This document shows positions 4,351 through 6,251 of a stretch of DNA of 64,000 nt, one piece after another. The notes beneath the pieces are model-generated. The model saw only the letters and a list, made by a program, of their open reading frames with translations. It was not told where the DNA came from and did not search any database. How positions within the stretch are numbered: position 1 is the stretch's first letter; each line of letters opens with the position of its first letter. This stretch comes from the human T2T-CHM13v2.0 reference genome, Homo sapiens. A program made the position numbers and the translations under genes. The stretch lies in NCBI RefSeq assembly GCF_009914755.1, contig NC_060936.1; one strand, written 5' to 3'.

Positions 4351-4808
4351 TTATCTATTCTATATACTAGCAATGAACAACCAAAAATAGAAATTAAAAA
4401 GTACCATTTATAATAGCATCTGGAAATATGATAAACTTAGGGATAAATCTAAGAAAAGACATGAAAGACCTCTACAGTAAAAACTATAAAACTCTGCTGA
4501 GAAAAACTGAAGACCTAAATAGATGTTAACATGTACCATGGTCATGGGTCACAAGACTCAATATTGTTAAGATGTCAATTCTCTCCATATTGATCTACAG
4601 ATTCAGTGCAATCTCTAACAAAATCCCAGCAATTATTTTTTAAGAAATTGACAAGCTGATTCTAAACTTCAAATGGAACTGCTGAAGTTGTAGAATAGAC
4701 AAAACTTTGAAAAAGAATAAAATGGATGGACTAACATTACCTACTTTTGAGACTTATAAAACGATAGTAATCAAGACTGTGGAATTTGAATAAGACAGAC
4801 AAATAGTC

Positions 4809-5071
4809 TTCATCTTTGCTGAAGACTAATTACTCTGGGATTATTATCTAACATGTCTGTTTCTCTGAATCAGATGATGAGAAGTTGGCCCCTTTCTGGG
4901 TGAAGGCTTTTTGAAAGTAGGATGTGGTTGACTTGAGTCATATTTATTTGCACTAGGACGTAAGAATGTTTCACATCCCCAGTTTTCCATGGTATCCTCA
5001 AAAAATCAATTTTCTCAAAATTCATTTAGGAAATAATACTTGGGAATAGTAAACATTCAAAAATAATCTTA
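4809..5071 (+). repeat. Direct-repeat copy of PKP2 intron 2 (source 18568-18834)
   Basis: Manual alignment gives about 20 differences over ~263 bp (~92% identity). Confidence 0.95.
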
Positions 5072-5073
5072 CA

Positions 5074-5672
5074 GGCTGGGTGTGGTGGCTCACACCTGTA
5101 ATCCCAGCACTTTGGGAGGCTGAGGTGAGTGGATCACTTGAGGTCAGGAGTTGGAGACCAGCCTAGCCAACATGGTGAAATCCTGTCTCTACCAAAAATA
5201 CAAAAATTAGCCGGGTGTGGTGGCAGTTGCCTGTAATCCCAGCTCTTCAGAAGGCTGAGGCAGGAGAATCACTTGAAGCCAGAAGGCGGAGGTTGCAGTG
5301 AGCCAAGATCATGCCACTGCACTCCAGCATGAGTGACAGAGCAAGACTCCATCTCAGAAAAAAAAAAAAAAAAAAAATCGGCTGGGTGCAGTGGCTTATG
5401 CCTGTAATCCCAGCACTTTGGGAGGCCAAGGTGGGCAGATCACTTGAGGCAAGAAGTTCAAGACCAGCCTGGCCAACATGATGAAACCTCGACTCCACTA
5501 AAAAAAAAATACAAAAATTAGCCATGTATGGTGACACATGCCTATAATCCCAGCTACTTGGGAGGCTGAGGCAGGAGAATAGCTTGAACCCGGGAGGCAG
5601 AGGCTGCAGTGAGGCAAGATTGCGCCACTGCATTCCTGTCTGGAACAGAGTGACTCCGTCTCAAAAAAAAAA
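5074..5672 (+). mobile_element. Tandem AluS dimer (5074-5377, 5379-5672)
   Basis: Two head-to-tail Alus that share private mutations with 8190-8802. Confidence 0.93.
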
Positions 5673-6251
5673 AGACAAATAGATCAATAGAACAGAATAC
5701 ACAGTCCAGAAATAGACTCACATATTTGATCAATTCCTTTTCAGCAAAGATACAAAGACAATTTAGCAGTGAAATAAAAGTCTTTGCAACAAATGACACC
5801 TGAACAATTAAATTTACATATACCAAAAAAAGGAACTTCAGTCCACATCTTACAATATATAAAAAATTAACCACAAATGGACCATAGAACAACTAAAATA
5901 TATAACATTTACAAAACTTCTAGGATAAAATATAGATTATCTTCTAACTTTTGAATAGAGAAACATTTCTTGGATACACATGAAAAGCAGAAACCATAAA
6001 GGGAAAAAACTGAATAAATTAAATCCCATTAAAATGAAAACCTATTAGGAGAATGAAAAAACAGAGCACAACTGGGAGAAAATATTTTCATATTATATAT
6101 CTAGAAAAGGTCTTGTATACAGAAAATATTAAAAAACTTACAAAATTCAATAATAAGAAAACAAAACAAAACAAAATGGGCAAAAGAATTGAATACACAT
6201 TTCACTAAAGAAGATATGTAAGTGGCAAATAAACACATAAAGAGATGTTCT

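What the first reader, a model, noticed from the sequence alone, without database searches (positions are those of the whole stretch)
4797..5682. Composite insertion in intron 4 apparently built from PKP2's own introns (possible pre-mRNA self-retrotransposition with twin-priming geometry)
Seen in the sequence: the old L1 reads continuously (taagacAGACAAATAGatcaatagaacagaa) if 4807-5682 is removed, and the insert is bounded by a 10-bp duplication agacaaatag (4797-4806, 5673-5682) with an A tail at its right end. Its 5' part (4809-5071) is a ~92% identical copy of intron 2 (18568-18834). Its 3' part is an Alu dimer sharing private changes with the dimer at 8190-8802 on the opposite strand. Relative to the minus-strand PKP2 pre-mRNA, the 3' part is sense and the 5' part is antisense, comes from further 5' in the transcript, and runs from its 3'-most point toward the RNA 5' end. 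There is caaat microhomology between the TSD and the source just before the copied segment (18563-18567). Established knowledge: this is the layout of L1 ORF2p twin-priming inversions. Inference: nascent PKP2 pre-mRNA was reverse transcribed and pasted back into the same gene. Caveats: the first Alu's left arm and the last ~40 bp do not match the 8190-8802 donor, so an Alu insertion with template switches, or a later gene conversion, is equally possible; the nick site is not a canonical TT/AAAA.
Basis: partly seen in the sequence, partly recalled or inferred. Interest (0 to 1): 0.85.

Follow-up and report, generated by a model that had tools for sequence, protein, structure and literature searches.

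The report
Three-part retro-insertion built from PKP2's own introns
An old repeat in intron 4 of the human PKP2 gene carries one ancient pasted-in block made of a copy of the gene's own intron 2, an ordinary Alu piece, and a copy of an Alu pair 2.5 kb away, which suggests the copying enzyme used templates from the same gene.

Summary
The 10-bp duplication (4797-4806 / 5673-5682) is a true target-site duplication. Three of the four paralogous repeat copies whose match spans the site carry the 10-mer once, with both flanks contiguous. 4809-5071 has exactly two places in the genome, itself and PKP2 intron 2 at 18568-18834. The best genome-wide relative of the Alu dimer is the inverted dimer at 8223-8793, and private motifs co-occur only in these two.

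Non-CpG divergence is the same for both copied parts: 16/257 = 6.2% and 24/378 = 6.3%. That fits a single event roughly 14-31 Myr ago.

The simple "one pre-mRNA, classic twin priming" reading does not fit:
- Alu1 5074-5250 is not a copy of the donor (0 shared private changes, 15.3% divergence).
- That stretch looks like a near-consensus Alu copied to its exact 5' end.
- Both junctions carry 2-nt fillers, not microhomology.
- The nick site is non-canonical.

Best reading: one L1-machinery retro-insertion from three templates, two of them local, with the intron-2 piece made from the opposite DNA end. This is a known kind of event (chimeric, two-RNA insertions). The unusual feature is that both donors lie in cis. 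Moderate interest.

The parts
4797..4806 (+). left copy of the 10-bp target-site duplication (agacaaatag)
   Evidence: paralogous repeat copies L034, L036 and L044 carry it once
4807..4808 (+). 2 unassigned filler bases (tc) at the 5' junction
   Evidence: they match neither the target nor the intron-2 donor
4809..5071 (+). copy of PKP2 intron 2 (donor 18568-18834), same strand as the donor and so antisense to PKP2 RNA
   Evidence: 19 mismatches and 2 gaps over 263 bases; only 2 places genome-wide
5072..5073 (+). 2 unassigned filler bases (ca) at the inner junction
   Evidence: the donor continues with gg, and the Alu starts at 5074
5074..5250 (+). Alu1 from its exact 5' end through the left arm and the start of the right arm. 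Not donor-derived; near-consensus Alu.
   Evidence: 0 shared non-CpG private changes; 15.3% non-CpG divergence from the donor; 7/144 = 4.9% from a 28-dimer consensus; Rfam Metazoa_SRP 62 bits at 5075-5191
5251..5355 (+). rest of the Alu1 right arm, donor-like. The template change lies between about 5250 and 5277.
   Evidence: the private 23-mer containing ttgaagccagaagg has 5 places genome-wide, including both PKP2 dimers
5356..5384 (+). A-rich linker ending in atc, the same architecture as the donor linker
5385..5662 (+). Alu2, a copy of the donor's second Alu (8223-8491, minus strand)
   Evidence: 91.9% to the donor against at most 84.5% to any other Alu in the window; 6 non-CpG and 11 CpG shared private changes in 5385-5625
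5663..5672 (+). pure A tail (10 A) abutting the right TSD
5673..5682 (+). right copy of the target-site duplication
8190..8802 (-). donor Alu dimer, sense in PKP2 intron 4 and 105 nt downstream of exon 4. The donor-derived stretch corresponds to 8223-8624.
18568..18834 (+). donor segment in the 376-nt intron 2 of PKP2 (intron nt 66-332 counted on the minus strand). Its PKP2-3'-most base lies 45 nt upstream of the 3' splice site.
   Evidence: exon bounds from the hub's annotation, with splice dinucleotides read
4560..4796 (+). old dispersed repeat interrupted by the insert, left flank as tested. I recognise it as L1 from recall only.
   Evidence: 3634 candidate copies, 72-84% identity among the 40 scored
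5683..5950 (+). the same old repeat continuing, right flank as tested

Best explanation
This is one ancient retro-insertion made by the L1 machinery (target-primed reverse transcription) into an old repeat in PKP2 intron 4. It was assembled from three templates.

Step 1. The bottom-strand 3' end at the target primed on the A-rich tail of an RNA carrying the intron-4 Alu dimer. That RNA was either nascent PKP2 pre-mRNA or a read-through transcript of the dimer. It was copied through Alu2, the linker and part of the Alu1 right arm.

Step 2. Within the conserved Alu stretch at about 5250-5277 the reverse transcriptase switched by homology onto a free, near-consensus Alu RNA. It copied this RNA to its exact 5' end.

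Step 3. The 263-bp intron-2 piece was made as a second cDNA from the opposite (top-strand) DNA end on local PKP2 intron-2 RNA. This gives the twin-priming-like opposite orientation. The two products were then joined by end joining, which left 2-nt fillers.

What is shown:
- the TSD, the A tail and the uniqueness of both donors;
- the equal age of the two local copies;
- the foreign but same-aged Alu1 5' part, and the exact Alu 5' end at the junction.

What is inferred:
- that the templates were RNA;
- that the local RNA was nascent PKP2 transcript;
- the order of the switches.
For: - The TSD and the empty-site architecture in paralogs are confirmed, and there is a pure A tail at the 3' end.
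- The intron-2 piece has only 2 places genome-wide.
- The dimer's nearest relative genome-wide is the neighbouring one. The private motifs have 88, 5 and 37 places genome-wide, and from the printed coordinates the only places where they fall in the same element are the two PKP2 dimers.
- The two local parts are the same age: 16/257 = 6.2% and 24/378 = 6.3% non-CpG.
- Alu1 5074-5250 shares 0 of 15 donor non-CpG changes, against 9 of 18 in the rest (p = 0.0014). Its own distance from the consensus (7/144 = 4.9%) equals the insert-private change in the donor-derived part (16/336 = 4.8%). So it was near consensus when inserted and is as old as the rest.
- No closer donor for this stretch exists in the window or in the other 70 kb of PKP2. 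The best matches are 88.9% and 87.7%.
- The junction sits at Alu base 1.
- The chance that a random donor lies within 14 kb of the target is about 9e-6, and within 3.6 kb about 2e-6. Local templating is therefore not chance.
- The hub's annotation lists no plus-strand transcript here, so an RNA-templated antisense piece points to a second RT reaction from the other end. This is the orientation rule given in PMC13174262 and PMC11702581 (passages).
- Three-part chimeras from double template switches are described in the abstract of PMC2104539.
Against: - The nick site is not L1-endonuclease-like. The bottom strand reads ...tgtct/gtctt rather than TTTT/AA.
- There is no microhomology at either junction, only 2 extra bases at each. 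Among 5'-inverted L1 insertions only 3.9% carry extra bases at the 5' junction (PMC2912911, section 9).
- 5' inversion is very rare for Alu insertions: 1 of 5554 (PMC2912911, section 8).
- Three templates in one event is not a parsimonious account.
- The Alu1 right arm is mosaic. It holds a cluster of 4 donor-only non-CpG changes (about 8566-8581) between shared private changes, which could mean patchy gene conversion.
- Divergence counts are small. The 95% intervals are 3.6-9.9% and 4.1-9.3%, so 'same age' is loose.
- No outgroup genome was available, so nothing here shows that the whole block arose at once or that RNA rather than DNA was copied.
Confidence: 0.45

Rival explanations
1. One nascent PKP2 pre-mRNA molecule served both reactions: primary TPRT from the A-rich tail of the intronic Alu dimer, and classic twin priming in intron 2. 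The Alu1 5' part was overwritten afterwards by gene conversion from another young Alu, in either the insert or the donor.
For: - Both donors and the target lie in one transcription unit within 14 kb, and the orientations and order match twin priming.
- The two parts are the same age.
- The local origin is highly non-random.
Against: - It needs an extra conversion event whose tract happens to end at the exact Alu 5' end and whose donor was near consensus.
- The insert's Alu1 5' part carries the same amount of private change as the rest (4.9% against 4.8%), so any conversion would have had to follow almost at once.
- The two parts are at least 983 nt apart on the RNA, not adjacent (compare the 1-10 bp junction deletions or duplications in PMC11702581).
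- The 'caaat' does not abut the junction.
Confidence: 0.17
2. A two-step history. First, an ordinary full-length Alu retro-insertion at this TSD carried a long 5' filler, the intron-2 copy. Soon after, break repair or gene conversion used the inverted Alu dimer 2.5 kb away as template. It entered in the Alu right arm and left in the A tail, which added the donor-like right arm, the linker and Alu2.
For: - The chimeric Alu1 has a clean change of ancestry at about 5250-5277 inside a conserved stretch.
- Proximity of the dimer donor follows naturally for gene conversion.
- The right arm is mosaic.
- Full-length Alu insertions carry 5' extra bases in 12.4% of cases (PMC2912911).
- De novo Alu cDNAs recombine with nearby genomic Alus in 6 of 226 recovered inserts (PMC3415434, passage).
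Against: - It would have to insert about 300 bp of heterology (Alu2) with only an A run as homology on one side.
- The three clocks agree (6.2%, 6.3%, and 4.9% against 4.8%), so the second step must follow the first closely.
- The cis origin of the intron-2 piece is still unexplained.
Confidence: 0.18
3. A single primary reverse transcription with end-to-end template jumps only. After reaching the Alu RNA 5' end, the enzyme jumped onto a plus-strand template from intron 2. That template was either an unannotated antisense or enhancer RNA, or the plus DNA strand. No second priming from the other DNA end took place.
For: - The junction at the exact Alu 5' end with 2 added bases is what a jump from the end of a template would leave.
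- A RefSeq enhancer feature (18129-18653, hub annotation) overlaps the donor.
- Template-switch chimeras are the commoner class (PMC13174262 passages; PMC2104539 abstract).
Against: - The hub's table annotates no plus-strand transcript at intron 2.
- No known RNA family lies there (0 Rfam matches at E up to 1).
- The orientation rule in PMC13174262 and PMC11702581 assigns antisense pieces to twin priming.
Confidence: 0.1
4. A DNA-level event with no reverse transcription. A staggered break in the old repeat was repaired by replicative template switching (FoSTeS/MMBIR-like) among nearby sequences of the same locus.
For: - All identifiable templates lie within 14 kb and in mixed orientations, which from recall is typical of replicative template switching.
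- The nick site is not L1-like.
- The donor tail and the target share a short acaaa.
Against: - There is a pure A tail next to a clean 10-bp TSD.
- One junction falls on the exact first base of an Alu, for which a DNA template gives no reason.
- Alu1's 5' part has no local DNA donor.
- There are 2-nt fillers rather than microhomology at the two junctions.
Confidence: 0.07

Closest known systems
Two-RNA L1-mediated insertions and antisense chimeras attributed to twin priming (PMC11702581 preprint, passages; PMC13174262, passages; original model by Ostertag & Kazazian 2001, known to me only from those reference lists and recall)
   Same: One TSD and an A tail at the 3' end. The two parts are in opposite orientation relative to their RNAs, and a separate RT product from the reciprocal DNA end is joined by end joining.
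   Different: - The primary template here is not L1 but an Alu-dimer-bearing RNA.
- Both identifiable donors lie in the same gene as the target.
- There is a third (Alu) template.
- The 5' junction has extra bases and no microhomology.
- The nick site is non-canonical.
Bipartite and tripartite chimeric retrogenes made by template switching during LINE reverse transcription (PMC2104539, abstract)
   Same: Several transcripts are fused head to tail within one pair of direct repeats. Double template switches are invoked.
   Different: In those chimeras the parts are in the sense orientation and come from abundant unrelated RNAs. Here the 5' part is antisense to the only annotated transcript and comes from an intron 13 kb away.
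Class 1 templated sequence insertions (PMC5110952, abstract and passages)
   Same: A TSD of at least 5 bp, an A tract, and intronic or intergenic sequence as template, attributed to L1 ORF2 protein acting in trans.
   Different: Class 1 insertions are described there as coming from distant regions, with a poly(A) signal and a TTTT/A site. Here the donors are local, the A tract can come from the Alu tail, and the site is not TTTT/A.
Alu retrotransposition completed by recombination with a nearby genomic Alu (PMC3415434, passages)
   Same: It yields a chimeric Alu in which one part is new and the other comes from a neighbouring genomic Alu.
   Different: Those events lack direct repeats and place the genomic Alu at the 5' side. 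Here a perfect TSD is present and the neighbour-derived part is at the 3' side.

Membership tests
L1-machinery (TPRT) retro-insertion | target-site duplication of about 7-20 bp flanking the whole insert | tested here: met
   10/10 bp duplication. Of the 4 paralogous repeat copies that span the site, 3 carry it once.
L1-machinery (TPRT) retro-insertion | A tail at the 3' end abutting the TSD | tested here: met
   10 A at 5663-5672. The tail could be templated by the donor Alu's own tail.
L1-machinery (TPRT) retro-insertion | first-strand nick at a TTTT/AA-like site | tested here: not met
   The bottom strand reads tgtct/gtctt (the consensus site is as quoted in PMC13174262 and PMC5110952).
L1-machinery (TPRT) retro-insertion | the template was RNA | tested here: inconclusive
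   The junction at the exact Alu 5' end suggests an Alu RNA. The intronic donors carry no splicing signature either way.
Classic twin-priming 5' inversion | the 5' part is inverted relative to the 3' part with respect to the template RNA and starts at its 3'-most point | tested here: met
   with gene strand from the hub annotation. This holds only if the intron-2 template was PKP2-sense RNA.
Classic twin-priming 5' inversion | both parts come from one RNA and are nearly adjacent at the inversion junction (1-10 bp deletion or duplication in 32 of 32 cases, PMC11702581) | tested here: not met
   The parts are at least 983 nt (spliced) or about 9.8 kb apart, and a non-donor Alu segment (5074-5250) lies between them.
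Classic twin-priming 5' inversion | microhomology at the 5' junction, rarely with extra bases | tested here: not met
   There is a 2-base filler (tc), and the caaat is offset by 4 bases. Extra bases occur in 3.9% of 5'-inverted L1.
Template-switch chimeric retrogene | parts fused directly within one pair of direct repeats, with poly(A) only at the 3' end | tested here: met
Template-switch chimeric retrogene | all parts are in the sense orientation of their source transcripts | tested here: inconclusive
   The Alu parts are sense. The intron-2 part is antisense to PKP2, the only annotated transcript. A plus-strand RNA cannot be excluded with these tools.
Replicative template switching (FoSTeS/MMBIR) | microhomology at each junction; no TSD or A tail expected (features recalled, not from a call) | tested here: not met
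   2-base fillers at 4807-4808 and 5072-5073; a clean TSD and A tail.

The most novel reading that the evidence does not exclude
Nascent PKP2 pre-mRNA, still tethered at its gene, was used in cis by the L1 reverse transcriptase at a break in the same gene. It served once from the A-rich tail of an intronic Alu dimer and once from the opposite DNA end in intron 2, so that a gene pasted pieces of its own introns back into itself. If this is general, local nascent transcripts would be a preferred 'second template' at intragenic L1 integration sites. They would also be a source of intragenic duplications that can be screened for genome-wide.
Probability: 0.3. Interest if true: 0.6.

Novelty: new variant of a known kind. 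Interest (0 to 1): 0.42.

Why it matters
Chimeric L1-mediated insertions from two or three RNAs are known. Their extra templates are usually abundant small RNAs or unrelated mRNAs. Here both identifiable donors lie within 14 kb of the target and inside the same transcription unit, which is far from chance (about 1e-5 and 2e-6). That points to locally tethered templates, probably nascent RNA, being captured at an integration site.

A single fossil locus cannot prove this. It does define a concrete signature that can be screened for in complete genomes and in long-read retrotransposition assays: a TSD, an A tail, and unique sequence whose donor lies in cis.

There is also a local consequence. 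The event created a second, inverted copy of an Alu dimer 2.5 kb from the first, within PKP2 intron 4.

Tried and rejected
1. Dispersed-repeat explanation for 4809-5071. Rejected: only 2 places genome-wide, and it is the only low-copy, high-identity pair in the window.

2. A third copy of the dimer elsewhere as the true source. Not found. The best other dimer is 84% (40 of 9611 candidates scored). From the printed coordinates, the exact-motif hit lists (88, 5 and 37 places) fall in the same element only at the two PKP2 dimers.

3. A local donor for Alu1 5074-5250. None found. The best match is 88.9% in the window and 87.7% in the remaining 70 kb around PKP2. These are generic Alu similarity values.

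4. A known structured RNA (for example a snoRNA) in intron 2 that could explain a stable template. There were 0 Rfam matches at E up to 1.

5. Confirming the flanks as L1 by protein family.
   - Translating the flanks failed because of stop codons.
   - Four stop-free fragments gave no meaningful Pfam match.
   - The L1 name therefore rests on recall. What is shown is an old dispersed repeat.

6. Editing or deamination signature. In the intron-2 pair, donor C against insert T accounts for 8 of 19 mismatches, and the reverse for 2. This cannot be polarised without an outgroup, and the contexts are not APOBEC-like. Insert-private changes in the Alu part showed no strand bias by eye.

7. The 'caaat' microhomology. 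It is present but offset by 4 bases from the junction, so I treat it as chance.

8. The idea that the right TSD copy is really the donor's tail. Rejected: paralogous repeat copies contain the 10-mer in place.

9. Earlier findings of this scan were not open.

10. Literature searches listed no paper on this PKP2 insertion. These cover listings only, plus the passages cited.

11. No primate genomes are reachable with these tools, so the empty-site and intermediate-state test could not be run.
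Full report
**What is there**

The window is chr12:32736001-32800000 of T2T-CHM13, and PKP2 lies on the minus strand (hub annotation). At 4797-5682 an old dispersed repeat is interrupted by an 866-bp block. The block is bounded by a perfect 10-bp direct repeat, at 4797-4806 and 5673-5682.

The flanking repeat has at least 3634 candidate copies in the genome. The 40 that were scored were 72-84% identical. I recognise it as L1 from recall only. Pfam gave nothing on four stop-free fragments.

I compared 11 paralogous copies with both flanks:
- In 4 of them the left-flank match reached the insertion point.
- In 3 of those 4 (L034, L036, L044) the right flank, taken from the second 10-mer onward, begins exactly 10 bases before the left flank ends.
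- L043 had only a distant right-flank hit.
- L038 and L041 had none.
- The other five were roughly contiguous but did not reach the junction.

So the 10-mer is single in uninterrupted copies. The duplication is a true target-site duplication.

**Anatomy of the insert**

| Window coordinates | Content |
|---|---|
| 4797-4806 | left TSD |
| 4807-4808 | tc, unassigned |
| 4809-5071 | copy of 18568-18834 |
| 5072-5073 | ca, unassigned |
| 5074-5355 | Alu1, starting at the Alu's first base |
| 5356-5384 | A-rich linker ending in atc |
| 5385-5662 | Alu2 |
| 5663-5672 | ten A |
| 5673-5682 | right TSD |

Rfam's SRP model finds four 7SL-like arms on the plus strand. The first starts at model position 1 at 5075 and scores highest: 62 bits, against 30.6-35.6 for the other three.

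**The 5' part**

4809-5071 has exactly two places in the 3.1-Gb assembly, itself and 18568-18834. It is also the only low-copy, high-identity pair in a self-comparison of the window. The pair differs by 19 mismatches and 2 gaps over 263 aligned bases.

The donor lies wholly inside the 376-nt intron 2 (18524-18899). The splice dinucleotides can be read. The donor covers intron nucleotides 66-332. Both copies are on the plus strand, so the insert copy is antisense to PKP2 RNA. No Rfam family matches the donor.

**The 3' part**

The best non-self match of 5072-5672 in the whole genome is the dimer at 8223-8793 on the minus strand, at 88% and 710 bits. The next is 84% and 616 bits. Only 40 of 9611 candidates were scored.

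I polarised the differences against a majority consensus of the 28 other dimers that one search returned. In 5251-5661 the insert and the neighbouring dimer share:
- 9 non-CpG derived changes;
- 16 CpG derived changes;
- several shared indel columns;
- the same linker ending.

Three private motifs have 5, 88 and 37 exact places genome-wide. From the printed coordinates, the only places where they fall in the same element are the two PKP2 dimers. The neighbouring dimer is sense in PKP2 intron 4, 105 nt after exon 4. The insert is therefore an inverted copy at the DNA level and a sense copy at the RNA level.

**Ages**

| Comparison | Non-CpG divergence | 95% interval |
|---|---|---|
| intron-2 pair | 16/257 = 6.2% | 3.6-9.9% |
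| 5251-5661 against its donor | 24/378 = 6.3% | 4.1-9.3% |

The two do not differ (Fisher p = 1.0). With recalled neutral rates of 1-2.2e-9 per site per year, this is about 14-31 Myr.

**What does not fit a single continuous template**

Alu1 5074-5250 differs from the donor's Alu1 at 25/163 = 15.3% of non-CpG sites (p = 0.0016 against the rest). It shares none of the donor's 15 non-CpG private changes there, against 9 of 18 in the rest (p = 0.0014).

Its own distance from the consensus is 7/144 = 4.9%. The insert-private change in the donor-derived part is 16/336 = 4.8%. So this stretch was close to consensus when it arrived, and it has aged as long as the rest of the insert.

It has no closer relative in the window (best 88.9%) or in the other 70 kb around PKP2 (best 87.7%).

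The change of ancestry lies between about 5250 and 5277, inside a stretch that is identical in all Alus compared. Because this segment begins at the exact Alu 5' end, the simplest source is a free Alu RNA copied to its end.

**Junctions and target**

Both junctions carry two unassigned bases and no microhomology. The first-strand nick would be at tgtct/gtctt on the bottom strand, which is unlike TTTT/AA.

**Mechanism**

A clean TSD, an A tail and an exact Alu 5' end point to the L1 machinery. Two donors within 14 kb and 3.6 kb of the target cannot be chance (about 9e-6 and 2e-6). Local templates were therefore used.

The literature gives an orientation rule: parts in the same orientation come from template switching, and parts in opposite orientation come from two RT products, made from the two DNA ends and then joined. 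This is stated in PMC13174262 (passages) and in PMC11702581, which also reports nine insertions derived from two RNAs (passages). PKP2 is the only annotated transcript here, so the antisense intron-2 piece is best read as a second RT product made on local PKP2 intron-2 RNA.

The chimeric Alu1 needs one of two things:
- a homologous switch onto a free Alu RNA during the primary reaction. Double switches are described in the abstract of PMC2104539;
- an almost immediate gene conversion.

I favour one event with three templates (0.45). The rivals are:
- a two-step history, in which an Alu with a 5' filler inserted first and repair from the inverted dimer 2.5 kb away followed (0.18);
- a pure template-jump model onto an unannotated plus-strand template (0.10);
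- DNA-level replicative switching (0.07).

**Evidence against my reading**

- 5' inversion is very rare for Alu: 1 of 5554 (PMC2912911, section 8).
- Extra bases at the 5' junction occur in 3.9% of 5'-inverted L1, against 12.4% of full-length Alu (section 9).
- The nick site is atypical.
- The Alu1 right arm is mosaic. A cluster of 4 donor-only non-CpG changes lies at about 8566-8581, between shared private changes.
- The last 36 bp of Alu2 hold a cluster of insert-only changes: 6 non-CpG substitutions and 4 columns where the three sequences differ by a gap.

**Limits**

- No other primate genome can be reached with these tools. The empty site, intermediate states and the polarity of the intron-2 differences are therefore untested.
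- The genome search scores only the best candidates.
- The literature searches listed no paper on this locus. That covers only the held library.

**Verdict**

This is a new variant of a known kind: a chimeric L1-mediated insertion. Its unusual feature is that both donors lie in cis, in the same gene. Interest is moderate.

Noticed in passing
window 5072-5672 (+) and 8190-8802 (-): The event left two inverted Alu dimers, 88% identical over about 570 bases and 2.5 kb apart, within the same PKP2 intron. In the pre-mRNA they could pair into a long duplex, a possible editing substrate. At the DNA level they form a large inverted repeat.
   Followed up: no
window 8566-8581 (donor Alu1 right arm): A cluster of 4 donor-only non-CpG changes lies within about 12 alignment columns, between blocks of changes shared with the insert. 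It may be a small conversion patch or a chance cluster.
   Followed up: partly
window 5626-5661: The last 36 bp of the insert's Alu2 hold 6 insert-only non-CpG substitutions and 4 gap-difference columns, but they keep the consensus-like end before the A tail. The donor is near consensus here except in its tail.
   Followed up: partly
window 18568-18834 vs 4809-5071: Of the 19 mismatches, 8 are donor C against insert T and only 2 are the reverse. This cannot be polarised without an outgroup, and the contexts are mostly A-C.
   Followed up: partly
window 18524-18899: The copied segment lies wholly inside the short intron 2 (376 nt). It ends 45 nt upstream of the 3' splice site, a few bases from candidate branch-point adenosines that I picked by eye. 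An excised-intron template cannot be excluded.
   Followed up: no
window 3014-3454: The RPL35AP27 processed pseudogene (hub annotation) lies 1.3 kb from the insert. Stop-free frames at 3543-3932 suggest the same old repeat continues just past it. If so, this stretch has taken at least two separate retro-insertions.
   Followed up: no
window 54292-54646, 56232-56580, 38926-39235: A three-copy, low-copy repeat in the window: 85% identity between the first two copies and 70-83% to the third, which is inverted. I did not identify it.
   Followed up: no
window about 4290-4340: A (CA/TG)n microsatellite lies inside the old repeat. It shows up as an HTHTHT run in the stop-free frames.
   Followed up: no
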